DNA from: Escherichia coli
GTDB taxonomy: Bacteria; Pseudomonadota; Gammaproteobacteria; Enterobacterales; Enterobacteriaceae
Strand: one strand, 5' to 3'
DNA length: 64,000 bases
Assembly: GCF_003018115.1 (NCBI RefSeq)
Contig: NZ_CP027457.1
Within the stretch, counting starts at the first letter, position 1. Each line of letters starts with the position of its first letter. The notes beneath the pieces were generated by a model. The model was not told the origin of the DNA. It worked only from the letters and a program-made list of their open reading frames with translations, and made no database searches. Position numbers and translations under genes: made by a program. Shown in pieces: positions 216-48,550 of this stretch.

Positions 216-1715
216 TTAAGTTCTCCGTGCGATGGGCCTGATTGGGGCTGGTATCTTTTTCTCTTTTGGTTTTTTGATGTCGCGCATCATTTTGGCGAAG
301 CGGCGCATCATGTATGCATAGCGAACGGCTGAGAGAACGTCGTCGTTAAGCTTGACGATCTTCCCGTTTTCATCACGGTGATAGAGGCGGAATTCCTCAA
401 AGAATGGTTCACAGGTGTTGAATACCTTGAAGCGACCATCTAGCATCATGTCGCGCAATTCAGTGATTCCAGGCTCAACAGCATTACCGCCATCAGGCCA
501 TGTCGCATGCTCCTGCAACATCATAAATCCAGCGTCCGCATACTGCCCTTTGAGCTGCTCACCGCCGCCCTTCTCGTGCTGGTTTCCGTCATGGGGCCAT
601 GCGGTTGGCACTTTATGCGCCCATGGTTTAACGGCTCCCCACGCCTGAACGGCTGTCTTTTCTTTCGCCTTCCACACGCGTGAAAGGTAGATTATGTCTG
701 CGTCCTTATCCCACCAAAGCTGAACCTGCGCCTGTGGGTGATCCCATCCGAAATCCATCCCGCCAATTACGTAGAAGTGATCCGGACACTCGAACGGCTG
801 ACACTTAATCGTCTCTTCCGGTATCTGGAAGATTCGACCGCTACCCATCGTAGGAATACCGCGAGCACGCGCCTCTCTCTCATGCTCGGGATAGGATGCG
901 ATGATTTGCTCTTTTTGCTCGTCGGTGTAGTGCTCAGCGTCGTAGATGGTCATGTTGACCACTTTCTGCGACTTGCTGGGATTCTTCAGGAACTTGGTAA
1001 CAACGTCAGACATCCCCATCAGCGGGGTAAACGTCAGAATTGAGAATTGCCCGTATTTGTTGGTACGGGTAAGGCCTTCGCCATAAATGCTGTATGGTGG
1101 TTCTTCGTCAAACCACACGCCATGGATTGTATCACCCTGCCAGCGAGCACGGCCTTGCGAGTATGGCTTGAAGTAGCAGATTGAAATGCCATCTTCAACG
1201 CCATCAGCCGTGTGATGCTTAACCAGAAGATGATCAACAAGGTTCGGAAAGAAAGGAGACTTCTTCCAGCTAATGATGTCTTCTTTCGGTATGGAACCGT
1301 AGCCAGGCTCATCATTCTCTTCGATACGACCGCACAGGATGCGTTGAGTCGTTTTGGTTACCGTCTCGTTTGTCTCGCCGCCAATCCAGAAGACAACAGG
1401 CTCATAGAAACGCTTACCTTTCCACTCGCCGCCATATTTACCATCAGCAGGATAGCCTTTTGTGCCAGGATAACGCCCTGTAAGGTGAAACGCGACTTCA
1501 GCAGCGCCAGTAAATGACTTACCAAGCTGGTTACCAGCCATAAAACATCGCTCTGGATAGTCATGCCCGGCGTCGATGAACTCACGCTGTTTGCTGTATG
1601 GCGTAAATTCATACAGCAGGTGTGTGTTCCGGTAGTTCTCTTCTTCTTCGAGTAGATCGAGCAATTCGATTTGCTCTTCATCGCTCAGGTTATCAAGAAT
1701 CGCGTCCAGTTCCAC
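216..1715 (-). CDS. Terminase large subunit (P22 gp2-like, 499 aa)
   Basis: 499-aa ORF directly upstream of the portal; length and position match the P22 gene 2 arrangement; overlaps terS end. Confidence 0.85.
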
Positions 1716-2181
1716 GGTTGAATAGCTCCTTGATACGAGAGCGCCGCTTATCGCGATCTCCCTTATCAGGTGTCACGTCTTCAACTTGCGACTGCTCTTT
1801 GAGGCCCAAATCACGGGCGATGATGTTAGCGTTGAGAAGGTCAGCGGCTGCGCCAGAGAATTTCTGGTCGTAGATGACCTGCTCTGCTCGCGTAACGACT
1901 TCAGATAAATCTTCTCGCAGGCGATATGTGCGCCATGTTTCAAGCGTCACATCAATGAACAGAGTGAGGCCGGTGATGGTCATCGCTCGCATCTTGGCGA
2001 TAGGCTCTTGCATCACTTCCCCCTGATACGAGAACGCCTTCATCTCCCATAGCGGGTTAGCTTCCACCCACTCGAAGTATTCACAACAAGCAGCCCACAG
2101 CGCCTCAGGCGATTCGAATTTAGGGTTTCGCCCATGACTACTGCGGGCCTCCCAAAATCGGTTGCCCTTTGGTGCTGCCAT
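1693..2181 (-). CDS. Terminase small subunit (P22 gp3-like, 162 aa)
   Basis: 162-aa ORF immediately upstream of and overlapping terL; same size and position as P22 gene 3. Confidence 0.7.
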
Positions 2182-2260
2182 ATTGATTATTTCCCTTCTG
2201 CTTGCTTATCCCATTCATCGCGGAATTTGGATGGGTTGTCGAAACCTTGAGTTGCCATGA

Positions 2261-2503
2261 TTATGCTCCGGTGGTGAACAGGTCTAACACTTCCTTCGAT
2301 TTACGTACCGCTTCGATAGTGCGGGTCGTGATATCTGAATTAGCGCCGCCTGACTGGAAGTGAATTTTGAATAGCTCAAGCTTCAGCTCGTCAGTGCCAA
2401 TGAACTGAAATGCTTCTTCTGCGGCTGCGTTCTGGTTCATGACCAGTTTGTAAATCTCTAACTGGAATTTCTGTTCTTCAGTCATGGGAATAATCTCTGC
2501 CAT
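2261..2503 (-). CDS. Hypothetical 80-aa phage protein (orf80-like, upstream of terminase)
   Basis: 80-aa ORF between rha and terS, as in P22-like genomes; no function recognised. Confidence 0.5.
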   Translation of the reverse strand: MAEIIPMTEEQKFQLEIYKLVMNQNAAAEEAFQFIGTDELKLELFKIHFQSGGANSDITTRTIEAVRKSKEVLDLFTTGA

Positions 2504-2712
2504 TGTTGGCTCCGTTTATCCGTTAAAAGGGATATCAGTTAAGTTATCCCGTGCAGGGTATAAGCTATTGTCGAGACCACTCATTGAATGGTCTCTCCAT
2601 CAGTCCGCCACCACAAAGAATCTTTTTTGCCATAAGGCAGGAGGTTCATCTTTCAGTGGCTGCCAGTGTTATTTCCCCACTTACTGGCTTGGGTTGTTTC
2701 GTGGTACTGCCG

Positions 2713-3255
2713 TTAATTGGTGAGTCCGGGGATTACGGTTTGCCCGTGCTGTTCAAGGCGTTCAATTCTCGCCAGTAGCTGAGGCTTCTTAATTTTTCCC
2801 CAGCGATTAAGCAGGCGGCCTGACATGCTGGCAACATCCTTCTCTTTCATGTACTCCAGCATTACGGCATTTCTCTCTTCTTCAAATTGACGATGACCAA
2901 CCTGAAGCATGGCGTACATCCAGTTGAATGCGTTGATGTAAGCAATTTTGATACGCATTGCTTCTTTTTTGGTGTAGGACATAACCAAAAGCATCAACCC
3001 ATCCTTACGTAGCCGATAGAATTTTTGCGGCTTACCATTCTGTAACTCATTGTTTTTATAGCAAAGCTCAAAGTTGAGCTTTGTATCAAACTCAGGAGGG
3101 CAAGCTTCTATGGTTCGCTCAATGTCACGGACTACGTTCTTCGGCAGCTTTCCAAATGCTTTTGCCACCATAAAAGAATCTGTAACCGGATCGTTGTTTG
3201 CTACAAAAATTAGGTCTCTGAAATCTATATCGTTAACAACGGTTGGGTAGTTCAT
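2713..3255 (-). CDS. rha: Rha-family phage regulatory protein
   Basis: 180-aa ORF with motifs typical of the Rha family (KDGLMLLVMSYTKKEAMRIKIAYINAFNWM); sits between lysis cassette and packaging genes. Confidence 0.6.
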   Translation of the reverse strand: MNYPTVVNDIDFRDLIFVANNDPVTDSFMVAKAFGKLPKNVVRDIERTIEACPPEFDTKLNFELCYKNNELQNGKPQKFYRLRKDGLMLLVMSYTKKEAMRIKIAYINAFNWMYAMLQVGHRQFEEERNAVMLEYMKEKDVASMSGRLLNRWGKIKKPQLLARIERLEQHGQTVIPGLTN

Positions 3256-3601
3256 TGCGTCTTTACCTTTTAGAAAGATGAGCCTGTTCGCACAGAAAAG
3301 CCGTCCCCGAGATGGTCGCCACCATATACGGCAATTCTCAGGCTCAGCTTTCTGAAAGACTCGGGATTGTTACGCGCTGCGATGCGCGGTTTACTGCAGA
3401 TGTAAAAAAGCCCCGCTACTGCGAGGCTAAATCCTGGTGTTTGTGATGACTGGCCCTTATCTCAACGCAGCCCCTTACCGCGCGCCAGATGCTCAATATC
3501 AAGCATCAGCAATGAGATGTTTAATCTGGATTCACTCCAGAAGTGATCACCACCCTGTCTACAGAGCCAGATGTGAAGGATGATGAGTAGAATTATCGCT
3601 A

Positions 3602-4039
3602 TCATCGAAGGCATTGCGTCCTGATGTATTCCTGCAGGTAGTTAACCTGCGCGGTTATCCTGTCGATTCCACTTCGGAGACGGTAATAATTGAGTTCAGC
3701 ATCTGCTGTAAGTCTTGGGCTTTCTCCATCGCCCATGCTGCTGGCTCCGGTCGTTGACTTTGCACAGGTGGCGGAGACTTGCAGGCGCTTACGACCAACA
3801 GAAACATCAGCACGGAGACTTTCGATAGTCGCGTTAGCATCAGCAAGCTCCTTTGTGTATCTGGCGTCGAGTTCTGCTACATCACGTTGACGCTTCTGCA
3901 TATCAGCGATGATGGATGTGGCTTTGTCGCGCTGGTCTTTATAGGCGATGGCGTTATCACGGTAATGATTAACAGCCCATGACAGGCAGACGATGATGCA
4001 GATAACCAGAGAGGAGATAATCGCGGTTACTCTGCTCAT
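3602..4039 (-). CDS. Rz: Rz spanin (inner-membrane subunit)
   Basis: 145-aa ORF beginning [30 protein letters not shown] (lambda Rz-like N-terminus), overlapping the endolysin stop. Confidence 0.8.
3655..3846 (-). CDS. Rz1: Rz1 spanin (outer-membrane lipoprotein), embedded in Rz in another frame
   Basis: ORF nested inside Rz with signal peptide, lipobox cysteine (LLVVSAC) and proline-rich segment ([13 protein letters not shown]); true start probably an internal Met. Confidence 0.65.
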
Positions 4040-4512
4040 ACCTCAATCTCTCTGACCGTTCCACCTGCTTCTTTGAATTTTGCAATCAGGCTGTCTGCCT
4101 TATGCTCGAACTGACCATAACCAGCCCCCGGCAGTGAAGCCCAGATATTGCTGCAACGGTAGATAGCCTGACGAATATCGCCGCGATCAATCATCGGTAA
4201 AGCGCCACGCTCTTTAATCTGCTGCAGCGCAACAGCATCCTGGCTTTTCGGAGAGAAGTCTTTCAGGCCAAGCTGCTTACGGTAGGCATCCCACCAACGG
4301 GAAAGAAGCTGGTAACGTCCAGCGGCTGTTGATTTGAGTTTGGGGTTTAGCGTGACAAGTTTGCGAGGGTGATCGGAGTAATCAGTGAATAGCTCTCCGC
4401 CAACAATGACGTCATAACCATGATTTCTGGTTTTCTGACGTCCGTTATCAGTTCCCTCTGACCACGCCAGCATATCGAGGAACGCCTTACGTTGATTATT
4501 GATTTCCACCAT
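4036..4512 (-). CDS. R: Endolysin (lambda R-type lytic transglycosylase)
   Basis: 158-aa [42 protein letters not shown]..., recognised as lambda R. Confidence 0.9.
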
Positions 4513-4819
4513 CTTCTACTCCGGCTTTTTTAGCAGCGAAGCGTTTGATAAGCGAACCAATCGAGTCAGTACCGATGTAGCCGATGAACACGCTCGTTAT
4601 ATAAGCGAGATTGCTACTTAGTCCGGCGAAGTCGAGAAGGTCACGAATGAACCAGGCGATAATGGCGCACATCGTTGCGTCGATTACTGTTTTTGTAAAC
4701 GCACCGCCATTATATCTGCCGCGAAGGTACGCCATTGCAAACGCAAGGATTGCCCCGATGCCTTGTTCCTTTGCCGCTAGAATGGCGGCTAACAGGTCAT
4801 GTTTTTCTGGCATCTTCAT
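4496..4819 (-). CDS. S: Holin/antiholin (lambda S-type)
   Basis: 107-aa [37 protein letters not shown]..., recognised as lambda S including the dual-start MKM motif. Confidence 0.9.
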
Positions 4820-5225
4820 GTCTTACCCCCAATAAGGGGATTTGCTCTATTTAATTAGGAATAAGGTCGATTACTGATAGAACAAATCCTGGCTACTGTG
4901 TTTAGTAATCAGATTTGTTCGTGACCGATATGCACGGGCAAAACGGCAGGAGGTTGTTAGCGCAGCCTCTTGCCACCCGCTTTCACGAAGGTCATGTGTA
5001 GAAGGCCGCAGCGTAACTATCACTAATGAATTCAGGACAGCCAGTGGCTACGGCTCAGTTTGGGTTGTGCTGTTGCTGGGCGGCGATGACGCCTGTACGC
5101 ATTTGGTGATCCGGTTCTGCTTCCGGTATTCGCTTAATTCAGCACAACGGAAAGAGCACTGACTAACCAGGCTCGCCGACTCTTCACGATTATCGACTCA
5201 ATGCTCTTACCTGCTGTGCAGATAT

Positions 5226-5283
5226 AAAAAATCCCGAAACCGTTATGCAGGCTCTAACTATTACCTGCGAACTGTTTCGGGAT
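5226..5283 (-). terminator. tR'-type terminator of the late leader (6S) RNA
   Basis: Minus strand reads CCCGAAACAGTTCGCAGGTAATAGTTAGAGCCTGCATAACGGTTTCGGGATTTTTT (hairpin plus T-run), matching the lambda tR' context downstream of Q. Confidence 0.7.
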
Positions 5284-5424
5284 TGCATTTTGCAGACCTC
5301 TCAGCCTGCGATGGTTGGAGTTCCAGACGATACGTCGAAGTGACCAACTAGGCGGAATCGGTAGTAAGCGTCGCCTCTTTTTATCTCACTACCACAACGA
5401 GCGAATTAACCCATCGTTGGGTCA

Positions 5425-5453
5425 AATTTACCCAACTTTATTCAATAAGTCAA
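5425..5453 (-). promoter_or_regulatory. Late promoter pR' (-35 TTGACT, 17-bp spacer, -10 TAAATT) with overlapping Q-utilisation (qut) region
   Basis: Minus strand TTGACTTATTGAATAAAGTTGGGTAAATT just downstream of the Q stop. Confidence 0.65.
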
Positions 5454-5495
5454 TATTATGCCGTTAATATGTTGCCATCCGTGGCAATCATGCTG

Positions 5496-6119
5496 CTAAC
5501 GTGTGACCGCGTTAAAAATGTTGTCTGCGATTGACTCTTCCTTGTGGCATTGCACCACCAGAGCGTCATACAGCGGCTTAACAGTGCGTGACCAGGTGGG
5601 TTGGGTAAGGTTTGGGATTAGCATCGTCACAGCGCGATATGCGGCGCTTGCTGGCATCCTTGAATAACCGACGCCTTTGCATCTTCCGCACTCTTTCTCG
5701 ACAACTCTCCCCCACTGCTCTGTTTTTGCTATATCAACCGCACGGCCTGTACCGTGGCAATCTCTGCATCTTGCGCCCGGCGTCGCGGCACTACGGCAAT
5801 AATCCGCATAAGCGAATGTTGCGAGCACTTGCAGCACCTTTGCCTTAGTATTTCCTTCAAGCTTTGCCACACCACGGTATTTCCCCGATACCTTGTGTGC
5901 AAATTGCATCAGATAGTTGATAGCCTTTTGTTTGTCGTTCTGGCTGAGTTCGTGCTTACCACAGAATGCAGCCATGCCGAATCCGGCTTGTGATTGCGCC
6001 ATCCCCATAGCAGCCATCACATCAGTACCGGAAAGAGAGTCAGAAGCCGTGGCCCGTGGTGAGTCGCTCATCATCGGGCTTTTTGGCGAATGAAATTTAG
6101 CTACGCTTTCGAGTCTCAT
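5496..6119 (-). CDS. Q: Late-gene antiterminator Q (lambda Q-type, 207 aa)
   Basis: 207-aa ORF with zinc-binding motif CRDCHGTG...CGRCKG, positioned immediately upstream of pR' and the lysis genes. Confidence 0.85.
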   Translation of the reverse strand: MRLESVAKFHSPKSPMMSDSPRATASDSLSGTDVMAAMGMAQSQAGFGMAAFCGKHELSQNDKQKAINYLMQFAHKVSGKYRGVAKLEGNTKAKVLQVLATFAYADYCRSAATPGARCRDCHGTGRAVDIAKTEQWGRVVEKECGRCKGVGYSRMPASAAYRAVTMLIPNLTQPTWSRTVKPLYDALVVQCHKEESIADNIFNAVTR

Positions 6120-6304
6120 GGTCTTCCCCTCTTGCCCTGTTTGACCATCAGGACGCCGTTAACTATTACGTGACGCTCGCCTTTGCTGTCTCGGTTGTAC
6201 TTGAGCACTGTTCCTCTTGCGCAGGAAAGCATCCTCGCCACTTCGGTCTGATTGCCTCGTGTCTGGATAAGAAGCTCTGGTATCGTTTGAATTGTGGCGT
6301 TCAT
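6116..6304 (-). CDS. ninH: NinH-like protein
   Basis: 62-aa ORF with YGNQTEVARxLxCxRGTVxKY motif resembling lambda NinH; adjacent to Q. Confidence 0.6.
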   Translation of the reverse strand: MNATIQTIPELLIQTRGNQTEVARMLSCARGTVLKYNRDSKGERHVIVNGVLMVKQGKRGRP

Positions 6305-6663
6305 ACGTTCTCCAGTTCGGTGATTTTTATTCCAAGCCTTCCGCCTGGTACTTTCACACCACGAATTACGCGAATGTCATCGAATTGCTCGTCGTCTTCC
6401 GCAAATCCGGCGTGGATAAGGGAGTCGAGTAAACCCTTCAGGATGTTATCGAGGTCGCGGCGGCGGGAGTCTGGAACGTCTGCGATGACTTTGATGCGGA
6501 GTCGTGATTTGGTGAAAATATCTAACTTGAGTTGGCGGATGATTTGCTGAACGTCTTTTCGGTATTTCTGGCCTTTATCGCTGATGTAGTATTGGCTTCC
6601 CCGTCTTCGCCAGTAGGTATTCACCGACGGCGGGTATGGAAGCACAAACCGATATTCATTCAT
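6301..6663 (-). CDS. rusA: RusA-family Holliday junction resolvase
   Basis: 120-aa ORF with RusA signature (PPSVNTYWRRRG...RRRDLDN...GGRLGIKITE). Confidence 0.8.
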   Translation of the reverse strand: MNEYRFVLPYPPSVNTYWRRRGSQYYISDKGQKYRKDVQQIIRQLKLDIFTKSRLRIKVIADVPDSRRRDLDNILKGLLDSLIHAGFAEDDEQFDDIRVIRGVKVPGGRLGIKITELENV

Positions 6664-47748: not shown

Positions 47749-47824
47749 TGGTGGGTCGTGCAGGATTCGAACCTGCGACCAATTGATTAAAAGTCAACTG
47801 CTCTACCAACTGAGCTAACGACCC
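47749..47824 (-). tRNA. lysQ: tRNA-Lys (UUU)
   Basis: 76-nt sequence (minus strand GGGTCGTTAGCTCAGTTGGTAGAGCAGTTGACTTTTAATCAATTGGTCGCAGGTTCGAATCCTGCACGACCCACCA). Confidence 0.9.
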
Positions 47825-47857
47825 CTTGCGGGATTATGATGCTTTAATCATTCAGGA

Positions 47858-47933
47858 TGGTGGGTCGTGCAGGATTCGAACCTGCGACCAATTGATTAAA
47901 AGTCAACTGCTCTACCAACTGAGCTAACGACCC
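47858..47933 (-). tRNA. lysZ: tRNA-Lys (UUU)
   Basis: Identical 76-nt tRNA-Lys sequence. Confidence 0.9.
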
Positions 47934-48079
47934 ATACGGGTGTTACCTGAAAGATTTTTACTCGGGGCCAATCTTTAAGATTGGTGGGTCGTGCAGGATG
48001 ACTCGCTTCGCTCGCCCTTCGGGCCGTTGCTGGCGCAACGTTATCCTTCACGCTTAACATCTGAGTTTGATGTTAAAAC

Positions 48080-48155
48080 TGGTGGGTCGTGCAGGATTCG
48101 AACCTGCGACCAATTGATTAAAAGTCAACTGCTCTACCAACTGAGCTAACGACCC
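48080..48155 (-). tRNA. lysY: tRNA-Lys (UUU)
   Basis: Identical 76-nt tRNA-Lys sequence. Confidence 0.9.
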
Positions 48156-48158
48156 GAG

Positions 48159-48234
48159 TGGTGGGTGATGACGGGATCGAACCGCCGACCCCCTCCTTGT
48201 AAGGGAGGTGCTCTCCCAGCTGAGCTAATCACCC
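48159..48234 (-). tRNA. valZ: tRNA-Val (UAC)
   Basis: 76-nt sequence (minus strand GGGTGATTAGCTCAGCTGGGAGAGCACCTCCCTTACAAGGAGGGGGTCGGCGGTTCGATCCCGTCATCACCCACCA). Confidence 0.9.
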
Positions 48235-48285
48235 GATACTGCGCTGGATACTACAAACTACTTCCACCGAACCCACCGTAATTAG

Positions 48286-48361
48286 TGGTGGGTCGTGCAG
48301 GATTCGAACCTGCGACCAATTGATTAAAAGTCAACTGCTCTACCAACTGAGCTAACGACCC
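48286..48361 (-). tRNA. lysW: tRNA-Lys (UUU)
   Basis: Identical 76-nt tRNA-Lys sequence. Confidence 0.9.
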
Positions 48362-48363
48362 GG

Positions 48364-48439
48364 TGGTGGGTGATGACGGGATCGAACCGCCGACCCCCTC
48401 CTTGTAAGGGAGGTGCTCTCCCAGCTGAGCTAATCACCC
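48364..48439 (-). tRNA. valT: tRNA-Val (UAC)
   Basis: Identical 76-nt tRNA-Val sequence. Confidence 0.9.
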
Positions 48440-48474
48440 GATACTACGCTGGATACTACAACTAACTAGGTTAG

Positions 48475-48550
48475 TGGTGGGTCGTGCAGGATTCGAACCT
48501 GCGACCAATTGATTAAAAGTCAACTGCTCTACCAACTGAGCTAACGACCC
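48475..48550 (-). tRNA. lysT: tRNA-Lys (UUU), first gene of the operon
   Basis: Identical 76-nt tRNA-Lys sequence. Confidence 0.9.

What the first reader, a model, noticed from the sequence alone, without database searches (positions are those of the whole stretch)
2261..3255. Rha-family regulator and orf80 inserted between lysis cassette and terminase
This interval is a recognised accessory site in P22-like genomes. Rha proteins have been implicated in host-dependent interference with phage growth. A 346-bp non-coding gap (3256-3601) with no ORF precedes rha.
Basis: partly seen in the sequence, partly recalled or inferred. Interest (0 to 1): 0.4.

Follow-up and report, generated by a model that had tools for sequence, protein, structure and literature searches.

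The report
Rha cassette with structured leader RNA
The two genes are ordinary, already catalogued accessory genes of a P22-like prophage, but the supposedly empty gap in front of rha holds a terminator and a conserved, pseudoknotted leader RNA (not in Rfam) that pairs with the gene's ribosome-binding site and recurs in front of many different regulator genes in enterobacterial phages.

Summary
On the minus strand, 2713-3255 encodes a 180-aa Rha-family protein (Phage_pRha plus ORF11CD3 domains). It is 100% identical to Sf101 gp63 and the CUS-3 protein, 56% to P22 ORF201 and 35% to phi80 Rha. 2261-2503 encodes the DUF2560 protein, which is P22 orf80. Both lie between Rz and terminase gene 3 of a P22-like E. 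coli prophage. These genes and the variable content of this slot are already known.

The 346-bp gap is not featureless. It contains three things:
- A 50-codon ORF at 3462-3614 that is annotated elsewhere, although its coding status is doubtful.
- An intrinsic terminator at 3403-3428.
- A roughly 140-nt leader at 3250-3392.

The leader is 80-90% conserved across Enterobacterales phages. It sits at a fixed distance upstream of unrelated genes (Rha, KilA-N, ANT, T5orf172, HNH). It folds into nested helices plus a pseudoknot, supported by compensatory changes, and it pairs the Shine-Dalgarno sequence. No Rfam family or paper was found for it, and no promoter or IHF site was found in the gap.

Most likely rha is read from the Q-antiterminated late transcript, with the terminator and leader limiting its expression. 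The gene finding is ordinary. The leader is a modestly novel by-product.

The parts
3602..4039 (-). Rz i-spanin, with Rz1 embedded at 3655-3846. This is the last gene of the lysis cassette and gives the context.
   Evidence: Pfam Phage_lysis 121.7 bits and phrog_13. Annotated as Rz and Rz1 in Sf101 and CUS-3.
3462..3614 (-). A 50-codon ORF ([18 protein letters not shown]...) that overlaps the Rz stop by 13 nt. Its coding status is doubtful.
   Evidence: phrog_11822, E 3.9e-38. Annotated as Sf101 gp62, epsilon34 gp67 and by PGAP; Sf6 annotates a 'gene 65 protein' at the matching place. All 21 distinct variants are open, but variable sites fall 10/5/7 on codon positions 1/2/3.
3403..3428 (-). 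Intrinsic terminator: an 8-bp G+C-rich hairpin AGCCTCGC-AGTA-GCGGGGCT followed by T6.
   Evidence: Terminator scan. A terminator is annotated at the equivalent place of phi80, epsilon34 and HK106. 112 of 118 related loci have a run of at least five T 31-49 nt upstream of helix P1, and the hairpin sequences differ between loci.
3250..3392 (-). Conserved structured leader RNA. Helices, in window coordinates: H1 3373-3388; a 3360-3365; P1 5' strand 3348-3359; b 5' strand 3339-3345; c 5' strand 3329-3338; H3 3312-3325; a' 3306-3311, which pairs with a to form the pseudoknot; c 3' strand 3294-3303; 7-nt bulge 3287-3293; b 3' strand 3280-3286; P1 3' strand 3266-3277, which includes the Shine-Dalgarno AAAGG at 3266-3270; start codon 3253-3255.
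   Evidence: MFE -49 kcal/mol, z -2.77. Covariance model match 143.7 bits on the sense strand against 23.7 bits on the antisense strand. 95.1% of cells paired against 36-50% for slid partners, and 21 of 36 pairs with changes on both sides. Pseudoknot variants tabulated. No Rfam match.
2713..3255 (-). rha: a 180-aa Rha-family (Bro-network) protein. The N-terminal Phage_pRha domain spans residues 25-113 and the C-terminal ORF11CD3 helical hairpin spans 125-176.
   Evidence: Pfam, NCBIfam and PHROG hits. 100% identical to Sf101 gp63 and CUS-3 ECRS218_0024, 55.8% to P22 ORF201, 35.4% to phi80 Rha. AlphaFold2 model with pLDDT 85.
2504..2712 (-). A 209-bp spacer between rha and orf80. This is the accessory slot, and it is empty in this prophage.
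   Evidence: The same slot holds DUF551 and Gp49 genes in E. coli 401651 and orf25/pid in P22 (about 830 bp; PMC8835761). Sf101 annotates a 24-codon ORF there.
2261..2503 (-). orf80: an 80-aa DUF2560 protein, equivalent to P22 ORF80 and HK620 hkbM.
   Evidence: PF10834 147.4 bits and phrog_571. P22 ORF80 differs at only three residues. Variable sites fall 7/3/28 by codon position.
2187..2258 (-). A 23-codon ORF ([23 protein letters not shown]) between the orf80 stop and the gene 3 start. A GGAG lies 7 nt upstream. It may be a real micro-gene.
   Evidence: Read from the sequence. Diverged copies keep the peptide, for example the Arg codon CGC becomes AGG. No PHROG match.
1693..2181 (-). Small terminase (P22 gp3 type). 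This is the downstream boundary of the interval.
   Evidence: Pfam GP3_package 114.4 bits and phrog_606.

Best explanation
The interval is the post-lysis accessory slot of a P22-like (Lederbergvirus-type) prophage integrated beside ybhC/gal in E. coli. It carries two known late-operon genes.

The first is rha. Its product has a winged-helix-like N-terminal Phage_pRha domain fused to an ORF11CD3 helical hairpin. It belongs to the domain-swapping Bro/KilA-N/ANT network and is inferred to be a DNA-binding regulator or antirepressor-type protein. The second is orf80, a DUF2560 protein of unknown role that is under purifying selection.

No promoter is found in the gap, so both genes are inferred to be transcribed only as part of the Q-antiterminated late transcript. 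Between Rz and rha lies an intrinsic terminator, which would stop unmodified RNA polymerase and so keep rha silent in the lysogen. Immediately after it comes a roughly 140-nt leader RNA. The leader folds into a long irregular hairpin (P1-b-c) with a small apical hairpin (H3), a 5' hairpin (H1) and a pseudoknot (a-a'). Helix P1 pairs the rha Shine-Dalgarno sequence.

My inference is that the leader limits or conditions translation of a potentially growth-inhibitory regulator within an otherwise very highly expressed operon. The terminator, leader and gene behave as a portable cassette: the same leader precedes Rha, KilA-N, ANT, T5orf172 and HNH genes in many enterobacterial phages.

Shown here: the gene identities, the terminator motif, and the leader's conservation, structure and covariation. 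Inferred: the transcription route, translational attenuation, and the function of Rha.
For: Gene identities.

Late-operon context: Q, holin, endolysin, Rz, rha, orf80, gp3 and TerL all lie on one strand.

No promoter-like site in 2100-3800 (0 found against 1.7 expected), and a strong terminator at 3409-3428.

The leader is conserved while the flanking genes are swapped.

Structure:
- MFE -49 kcal/mol, z -2.77.
- RNAalifold recovers H1, P1, b and c.
- On the 57-row model-fitted alignment, 95.1% of cells are paired against 36-50% for slid partners, and the covariation score is 0.257 against 0.03-0.06.
- P22-type leaders keep every helix with different base pairs.
- Many G-U pairs fit only the sense strand.

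The pseudoknot is kept with six different sequences: CCCGAG/CUCGGG, ACCCGAG/CUCGGGU, CGAGAG/CUCUCG, CCACCGA/UCGGUGG, GUCGA/UCGAC and CCAAGAG/CUCUUGG.

Shine-Dalgarno pairing: mean pairing probability of the SD core is 0.91 in 73 leaders against 0.51 when the upstream part is shuffled. A Yersinia copy keeps the P1-SD pairing through a U-A to A-U swap.

The Rha fold is a beta-beta-alpha-alpha-beta-beta-alpha N domain plus two long helices.

Literature: rha is a late-operon gene that is detrimental in IHF-deficient hosts (PMC4936722 citing Henthorn & Friedman 1995).
Against: - No expression data were available, so transcription from the late promoter and read-through of the terminator are inferred.
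- In the window's own leader the predicted SD pairing probability is only 0.43, the lowest of the set. In P22 the SD lies just outside P1.
- Compensatory changes come from a few deep lineages (types A, B, C, P22 and rare copies), so independent events are few. The best statistics also come from an alignment fitted to the model. On the plain MAFFT alignment the signal is weaker: 88.3% paired and 8 pairs with double changes.
- With P1 formed, a and a' sit at opposite ends of the hairpin. The pseudoknot therefore requires either a sharp bend at the 7-nt bulge or an alternative conformation.
- A conserved pseudoknot, a conserved GGCG loop and a conserved GUGNGA bulge are more elaborate than simple SD masking needs.
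- No IHF consensus was found in the leader, so the published IHF link is unexplained.
Confidence: 0.6

Rival explanations
1. The leader is a true switch: a riboswitch-like or protein-binding RNA. Its pseudoknotted fold would sense a metabolite, a second messenger, a host factor (possibly the IHF-dependent effect) or a phage protein, and would open the Shine-Dalgarno sequence only under that condition.
For: The architecture is complex and conserved, with a pseudoknot. Unpaired elements are strongly conserved: the GGCG loop of H3, the GUGNGA bulge and the CUCGG region. The distribution is Enterobacterales-wide. The two-arm geometry, P1+b of about 19 bp against c+a:a' of about 17 bp, would allow a compact fold; this last point is inference.
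Against: No ligand or partner is indicated. The downstream genes are regulators and nucleases, not metabolic genes that would hint at a ligand. There is no similarity to any Rfam riboswitch. Alternative ON and OFF structures were not demonstrated.
Confidence: 0.2
2. The leader is an RNA-processing or stability element. For example, it could be an RNase III site like those between T7 genes or in the lambda N leader. It would separate the rha mRNA from the lysis mRNA and set its half-life or activate its translation.
For: There is a long, nearly continuous duplex (P1-b-c, about 28 bp) with an asymmetric internal bulge, placed between cistrons of a polycistronic late transcript. Resemblance to the phage RNase III sites is recalled from memory only.
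Against: RNase III sites do not need a pseudoknot or a conserved apical hairpin. No processing data exist. The fixed distance to the start codon and the pairing of the SD point to translation.
Confidence: 0.12
3. The gap carries rha's own promoter and operator, as the first reader's suggestion of promoter mapping implies. rha-orf80 would then be a moron expressed independently of the late operon, possibly under IHF control.
For: A terminator directly upstream would insulate an independent unit. The palindrome GCGC-N6-7-GCGC (H1) could be read as an operator. The literature says IHF regulates rha.
Against: No sigma-70-like promoter is predicted. The linker between H1 and helix a, where a -10 element would have to lie, is the least conserved part of the leader. 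H1 covaries as an RNA helix, with C-G changing to U-A. No IHF consensus is found with up to one mismatch. No terminator follows orf80 before gene 3.
Confidence: 0.08
4. The conserved leader has no RNA function. It would be a DNA 'boundary sequence' kept similar by frequent homologous recombination between mosaic lambdoid genomes.
For: It lies exactly at a mosaic joint where downstream genes are exchanged. Boundary sequences are annotated elsewhere in CUS-3.
Against: Divergent versions (the P22 type, the L130 and L019 second copies, a Yersinia copy) have different sequences but keep all helices through compensatory and G-U changes. The distance to the start codon is fixed. Recombination alone does not predict base-pair covariation.
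Confidence: 0.06

Closest known systems
rha of phage phi80 and ORF201 (rha) of phage P22 (Henthorn & Friedman 1995; Pfam PF09669, TIGR02681)
   Same: Same family by HMM. Same position, after Rz and before the packaging genes. Same strand as the late operon. A homologous leader and terminator lie upstream in both phi80 and P22.
   Different: Only 35% (phi80) and 56% (P22) identical. Against P22 the N-terminal 124 residues are 41% identical (49/119), while the C-terminal ORF11CD3 part is 53/56 identical, so there is a mosaic joint inside the gene. The Rha phenotype itself was not tested here.
Sf101 gp63 / CUS-3 ECRS218_0024 with their DUF2560 neighbours (Sf101 gp65, CUS-3 hkbM)
   Same: The Rha protein is 100% identical. 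The DNA is 96.5-97% identical from orf80 to the endolysin. This is the same cassette.
   Different: The window joins this cassette to a P22-type gp3/gp2 terminase, and no phage record covers 80% or more of 1600-4100. CUS-3 annotates a 23-codon longer start that is out of frame in the window.
Bro-network proteins (Bro-N, KilA-N, ANT, ORF11CD3, Phage_pRha, T5orf172; Iyer et al. 2002; PMC10111431)
   Same: The genes found behind the same leader are exactly these domain-shuffled families. ORF11CD3 is shared by the Rha and KilA-N versions.
   Different: The shared upstream RNA leader has not, to my knowledge and in the papers searched, been described as part of this network.
SD-sequestering mRNA leaders and pseudoknot riboswitches (for example preQ1-II, SAM-II), the lambda N leader, P1 c4-ant and Gifsy-1 IsrK-AnrP control of antirepressor-like genes
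   Same: A structured 5' leader pairs the ribosome-binding site of a phage regulator. A pseudoknot is part of the fold. The gene controlled is antirepressor-like.
   Different: No sequence or structure match to any Rfam family, including C4 and IsrK. No ligand or antisense partner is known. The position is inside the late operon directly after a terminator. These resemblances are from memory and are functional analogies only.
Morons of lambdoid phages (Juhala et al. 2000), for example P22 pid
   Same: An optional extra gene sits between conserved modules, at a hot spot that holds pid in P22.
   Different: A moron has its own promoter and a downstream terminator and is expressed from the prophage. 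Here no promoter is found, the terminator is upstream, and the orientation matches the late operon.

Membership tests
Rha family (Pfam PF09669 Phage_pRha / NCBIfam TIGR02681) | Profile score above the curated cut-off. | tested here: met
   PF09669 77.1 bits (cut-off 29.9), residues 25-113. TIGR02681 84.8 bits (cut-off 45.95). phrog_518 E 1.5e-81.
Rha family (Pfam PF09669 Phage_pRha / NCBIfam TIGR02681) | Pairwise homology to the founding members, phi80 Rha and P22 ORF201. | tested here: met
   BLASTP 35.4% identity with E 1e-24 to phi80 Rha, and 55.8% with E 2e-65 to P22 ORF201.
Rha family (Pfam PF09669 Phage_pRha / NCBIfam TIGR02681) | Late-region position between the lysis genes and the packaging genes, as in phi80 and P22. 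| tested here: met
   Gene order Rz, rha, orf80, gp3 on one strand. Same order in P22 and phi80.
Rha family (Pfam PF09669 Phage_pRha / NCBIfam TIGR02681) | Rha phenotype: inhibition of phage growth in IHF-deficient hosts. | not testable with these tools
   Needs plating of the induced phage, or a lambda hybrid, on himA/hip mutants with and without rha.
Rha family (Pfam PF09669 Phage_pRha / NCBIfam TIGR02681) | IHF control of rha through an IHF site near the gene. | tested here: inconclusive
   No WATCAANNNNTTR match with up to one mismatch in 3230-3480 of the window or in the phi80 leader. One 1-mismatch match lies inside the start of the P22 ORF. Absence of a consensus does not exclude binding.
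ORF11CD3 domain (PF10549) | Profile score above the cut-off. | tested here: met
   91.2 bits (cut-off 25), residues 125-176. Modelled as two long antiparallel helices.
DUF2560 (PF10834; P22 orf80 / HK620 hkbM) | Profile score above the cut-off and near-identity to P22 ORF80. | tested here: met
   147.4 bits (cut-off 25). The P22 ORF80 sequence differs at three residues. Purifying selection at 7/3/28.
Moron (autonomous accessory transcription unit) | Own promoter upstream and own terminator downstream of the inserted gene. | tested here: not met
   0 promoter-like sites in 2100-3800. The only sense-strand terminator is upstream of rha.
Intrinsic (rho-independent) terminator | G+C-rich hairpin followed by a T run on the transcribed strand. 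| tested here: met
   8-bp stem with 6 G-C pairs, loop of 4, then T6, at 3403-3428 on the minus strand. Annotated at the equivalent place in phi80, epsilon34 and HK106. Termination activity was not tested.
Any described RNA family (Rfam 15, including C4, IsrK, riboswitches and ribozymes) | Covariance-model match. | tested here: not met
   cmscan of 1500-6500, both strands, permissive filters, E up to 1: 0 matches.
Structured cis-regulatory leader with pseudoknot | Helices supported by compensatory changes across homologues, on the sense strand only. | tested here: met
   21 of 36 nested pairs have changes on both sides, and 95.1% of cells are paired against 36-50% for slid partners (the alignment is fitted to the model). 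The a-a' pairing is kept with six different sequences. Sense strand 144 bits against antisense 24 bits.
Structured cis-regulatory leader with pseudoknot | Effect on expression of the downstream gene. | not testable with these tools
   Needs reporter fusions and probing. Only SD pairing is predicted: mean 0.91 against 0.51 for shuffled controls, and 0.43 in the window itself.
Riboswitch | Ligand-dependent alternative structures. | not testable with these tools
   No ligand candidate. No alternative fold demonstrated.

The most novel reading that the evidence does not exclude
The roughly 140-nt leader is a previously undescribed class of pseudoknotted riboregulator. It would be a riboswitch-like or factor-responsive switch that, together with the upstream terminator, forms a portable control cassette. 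The cassette would gate Bro-network regulators and homing-type nucleases (Rha, KilA-N, ANT, T5orf172, HNH) inside the late operons of lambdoid phages across Enterobacterales. It could be the unexplained target of the IHF-dependent Rha effect.
Probability: 0.2. Interest if true: 0.7.

Novelty: new member of a known kind. Interest (0 to 1): 0.4.

Why it matters
The genes themselves add nothing new. Rha and orf80 at this slot have been catalogued in P22, Sf101, CUS-3 and thousands of E. coli prophages.

The value lies in the gap. A leader RNA is present in about half of complete E. coli genomes at least in part, in Stx-converting phages, P22, phi80 and HK620, and in prophages of at least a dozen enterobacterial genera. 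It appears to have escaped description.

It offers three things:
- A concrete handle on how phages restrain potentially toxic antirepressor-like proteins within a very strongly transcribed operon.
- A possible mechanistic lead on the old Rha/IHF puzzle.
- A compact natural part (terminator plus leader) that evolution re-uses in front of unrelated genes.

It also warns annotators that CDS starts extended into this leader, as in CUS-3 and P22 ORF201, are probably wrong.

Tried and rejected
- Rfam 15 scan of 1500-6500 at E up to 1: nothing.
- Sigma-70 promoter scan of 2100-3800: none.
- IHF consensus search in the window, P22 and phi80 leaders: none in the leaders.
- Literature searches found no description of the leader. 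I searched for rha/IHF, EHEC prophage sRNAs, Pas sRNAs, boundary sequences, BTP1 transcriptomics, Rha-family function, and literal sequence strings. The anti-sRNAs of Tree et al. lie at the pR' moron site, not here. Henthorn & Friedman 1995 (PMC177009) is not held, so what that paper says about the upstream region could not be checked.
- The plain MAFFT alignment misaligns the P22-type leader and the a-a' register, which weakens the covariation counts. I used a model-fitted alignment instead and state its bias.
- The viral-contig scan for the P22-type leader returned mostly chance hits and little diversity.
- The search for related loci with the Rha alignment failed because no conserved stretch was available. 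I replaced it with tblastn plus a model search: Rha-domain genes of a Pseudomonas phage, Vibrio phage VHML and the early region of Ss-VASD have no leader.
- The 50-codon ORF was considered as a real small membrane protein. I neither accepted nor rejected it: it is always open, but it shows no codon-position bias.
- I considered whether the leader codes for an N-terminal extension of Rha, as annotated in CUS-3 and P22. I rejected this because the frame is broken in the window and the region covaries as RNA.
Full report
**Context.** The first 6.2 kb of the window, read on the minus strand, is the late region of a lambdoid prophage. The gene order is:
- Q antiterminator, 5496-6119
- lambda-type holin, 4496-4819
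- endolysin, 4036-4512
- Rz with embedded Rz1, 3602-4039
- the interval in question
- P22-type small terminase gp3, 1693-2181
- large terminase, 216-1715

From about 20,593 onward the window is core E. coli chromosome (ybhC, gal, mod), so the prophage sits in the att-lambda neighbourhood. The nearest phage records are Lederbergvirus members: vB_EcoP-720R6, CUS-3 and Sf101, at 96.5-97.2% identity from orf80 to the endolysin. P22 itself matches only in pieces.

The 180-aa product of 2713-3255 passes the curated thresholds of three models. These are Pfam Phage_pRha (77.1 bits against 29.9, residues 25-113), Pfam ORF11CD3 (91.2 bits against 25, residues 125-176) and NCBIfam TIGR02681 (84.8 bits against 45.95). 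It also matches PHROG 518, 'Rha-like transcriptional regulator', at E 1.5e-81. It is 100% identical to Sf101 gp63 and to residues 24-203 of the CUS-3 protein, 55.8% identical to P22 ORF201 and 35.4% (E 1e-24) to phi80 Rha.

The 80-aa product of 2261-2503 is a DUF2560 protein (147.4 bits) and differs from P22 ORF80 at three residues. Its variable sites in 27 distinct homologues fall 7/3/28 on codon positions 1/2/3, so it is a protein under purifying selection.

**The accessory site.** The content of the slot differs between close relatives:
- E. coli 401651 has DUF551 and Gp49 genes inserted between the same Rha and DUF2560 genes.
- P22 has about 830 bp there, which hold orf25 and the oppositely oriented pid moron (PMC8835761).
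- HK620 has a KilA-N gene in place of rha.
- epsilon34 and HK106 have a T5orf172-type gene in place of rha.

In the window the rha-orf80 spacer is only 209 bp. About 55% of complete E. coli genomes (2995 of 5426) match part of 2150-3700, and 111 match 80% or more of it. All of this is ordinary and already catalogued.

**The gap is not empty.** Three features occupy 3256-3601.

*First, a small ORF.* A 50-codon ORF (3462-3614) overlaps the Rz stop by 13 nt. It matches phrog_11822 and is annotated in Sf101, epsilon34 and PGAP genomes; Sf6 annotates a 'gene 65 protein' at the matching place. It is open in all 21 distinct variants. However, its variable sites fall 10/5/7 on codon positions 1/2/3, so it shows no coding signature. 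I leave it undecided.

*Second, a terminator.* An intrinsic terminator lies on the coding strand: an 8-bp G+C-rich stem and then T6, at 3403-3428. The equivalent hairpin is annotated as a terminator in phi80, epsilon34 and HK106. 112 of 118 related loci have a T run at the same place, behind hairpins of differing sequence.

*Third, a conserved leader.* The remaining 150 nt down to the rha start codon are strikingly conserved. BLAST of the gap shows it is modular. The Rz-proximal half travels with the 50-codon ORF (Sf6, mEp043). The rha-proximal half (window 3257-3427) recurs at 80-91% identity in phi80, HK106, 74 Stx2a-converting phages, and Hafnia, Pantoea, Enterobacter and Erwinia phages.

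**The leader is independent of the gene behind it.** A pattern scan of viral contigs returned at least 120 loci. In 118 usable elements (96 distinct) an ORF starts at a fixed distance behind the leader, yet the ORFs are unrelated. By Pfam they include Phage_pRha with or without ORF11CD3, KilA-N with or without ORF11CD3, ANT/KilAC, T5orf172/MUG113 and HNH_3. These are the domain-swapping 'Bro network' (PMC10111431).

A species-representative genome scan found the core in Escherichia, Enterobacter, Citrobacter, Leclercia, Pluralibacter, Shimwellia, Buttiauxella, Intestinirhabdus, Pantoea, Serratia, Rahnella, Chimaeribacter and Yersinia.

Rha-domain genes elsewhere lack the leader. I tested a Pseudomonas phage, Vibrio phage VHML and the early region of Ss-VASD. 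The leader therefore belongs to the post-lysis slot of enterobacterial lambdoid phages, not to the Rha family.

Some phages carry a second, diverged copy. In L130 it lies between Q and the holin, ahead of an HNH gene. In L019 it lies in tandem, ahead of a 75-codon ORF. There is also one in a Yersinia prophage. The window has a single copy.

**Structure of the leader.** The window's 143-nt RNA folds to -49 kcal/mol, with z -2.77 against shuffles. The fold consists of:
- a 5' hairpin H1;
- a long irregular hairpin of three stacked helices, P1, b and c, with a 7-nt bulge on the 3' side;
- a small apical hairpin H3 with a GGCG loop.

RNAalifold on 19 representatives recovers H1, P1, b and c. P1's 3' strand contains the Shine-Dalgarno AAAGG.

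The P22-type leader is too diverged for MAFFT to align well. Even so, it keeps every helix with different base pairs. Examples are b GAGCCUG/CAGGCUC against GCCUUUG/CAAAGGU, c AGAAUUGCCG/CGGCUUUUCU against AGGAUACCAG/CUGGUUUCCU, and H3 GGU/ACC against GCU/AGC.

A covariance model built from the 19 sequences finds the sense strand at 78-155 bits and the antisense strand at about 24 bits. On the resulting 57-row alignment:
- 95.1% of cells are standard pairs, against 36-50% when partners are slid by 1-3 columns;
- 21 of 36 pairs show changes on both sides;
- the covariation score is 0.257, against 0.03-0.06 for slid partners;
- many G-U pairs fit only this strand.

There are caveats. That alignment is fitted to the model. 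The compensatory changes stem from a handful of deep lineages. The unfitted MAFFT alignment gives weaker numbers: 88.3% paired and 8 pairs with double changes.

**Pseudoknot.** Six nucleotides just 5' of P1 (segment a, 3360-3365, CCCGAG) are complementary to six nucleotides between H3 and the 3' strand of c (segment a', 3306-3311, CUCGGG). This complementarity is kept with different sequences in different lineages:
- ACCCGAG/CUCGGGU
- CGAGAG/CUCUCG
- CCACCGA/UCGGUGG (P22)
- GUCGA/UCGAC (L130 second copy)
- CCAAGAG/CUCUUGG (Yersinia second copy)
- possibly GAAAG/CUUUC (L019 second copy)

With the a'-side loop segment shuffled, a match of 6 nt or more arises 2.5% of the time. Only a decayed copy lacking a start codon has lost the pairing. 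With P1 formed, a and a' lie at opposite ends of the hairpin. Either the two arms (P1+b about 19 bp, c plus a:a' about 17 bp) fold back on each other at the bulge, or the pseudoknot belongs to an alternative state. I could not decide this.

**How it most likely works.** No promoter-like site is predicted anywhere in 2100-3800 (0 found against 1.7 expected). The only poorly conserved stretch of the leader is the A-rich linker where a -10 element would have to lie. I therefore infer that rha and orf80 are read only by Q-modified polymerase coming from pR'. The terminator would block stray transcription in the lysogen.

The leader pairs the Shine-Dalgarno core. The mean pairing probability is 0.91 in 73 distinct leaders against 0.51 when the upstream part is shuffled, although it is only 0.43 in the window's own copy. 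A Yersinia copy preserves the P1-SD pairing through a U-A to A-U exchange. The simplest reading is a translational throttle on proteins that are harmful in excess. This fits the literature report that rha of phi80 and P22 blocks phage growth when IHF is missing (PMC4936722 citing Mozola & Friedman 1985 and Henthorn & Friedman 1995).

The elaborate conserved fold leaves room for a true switch, responsive to a ligand or a factor, or for an RNase III-type processing site. I found no IHF consensus in the leader.

**Comparison and novelty.** The genes are members of known families, and identical copies are already deposited. The leader matched no Rfam 15 family, and I found no paper describing it. 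The key 1995 paper could not be read. It may mention sequence similarity upstream of the two rha genes.

I rate the original finding as ordinary. The leader is a new member of a known kind, namely structured SD-pairing mRNA leaders, and deserves moderate interest.

Noticed in passing
window 3462-3614 (-): A 50-codon ORF with a hydrophobic N-terminus overlaps the Rz stop. It is annotated in several phages and by PGAP (phrog_11822) and is always open in 21 variants. Its variable sites fall 10/5/7 on codon positions 1/2/3, so it may not be a protein gene.
   Followed up: partly
window 2187-2258 (-): An unannotated 23-codon ORF ([23 protein letters not shown]) is wedged between the orf80 stop and the gene 3 start, with a GGAG 7 nt upstream. 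Diverged copies conserve the peptide through synonymous and conservative changes, so it may be a real micro-gene.
   Followed up: partly
window 2713-3255 (-), compared with P22 ORF201: There is a mosaic joint inside rha. The N-terminal 124 residues are 41% identical to P22, while the C-terminal ORF11CD3 part is 53/56 identical. The same C-terminal module is fused to KilA-N domains in HK620-type genes.
   Followed up: yes
L130 5177-5317; L019 11795-11913; L276 1-122; L067 11586-11724 and L263 5114-5252: Second, diverged copies of the leader occur in the same phage genomes. One lies between Q and the holin ahead of an HNH gene. One lies in tandem ahead of a 75-codon ORF. One is in a Yersinia prophage. 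Two are decayed copies without a start codon. The leader plus gene therefore behaves as a portable cassette.
   Followed up: partly
L002 (CUS-3) 1978-2589 and L003 (P22) 2863-3468: The deposited CDS starts for rha in CUS-3 (203 aa) and P22 (ORF201, GTG start) extend 23 codons into the structured leader. The extension is out of frame in the window, so these annotated starts are probably too far upstream.
   Followed up: partly
window about 20,593 onward: This is the prophage-host junction. From 20,593 the window is core E. coli chromosome (ybhC, ybhJ, ybhI, modF, galK), matched at 80% or more of the query in 5345 of 5426 genomes and up to 99.9% identical. The P22-like prophage therefore sits in the att-lambda neighbourhood.
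   Followed up: no
window 47,749-48,550 (-): A cluster of seven tRNA genes (five Lys-UUU and two Val-UAC). It is a host feature unrelated to the finding.
   Followed up: no
window 2504-2712 (-): The rha-orf80 spacer contains two short inverted repeats on the sense strand: CCAGT...ACTGG, and GAGACCA-TTCAATGA-GTGGTCTC in which 6 of the 7 opposed bases pair. Sf101 annotates a 24-codon ORF there. No function is evident, and the leader model does not match it.
   Followed up: no
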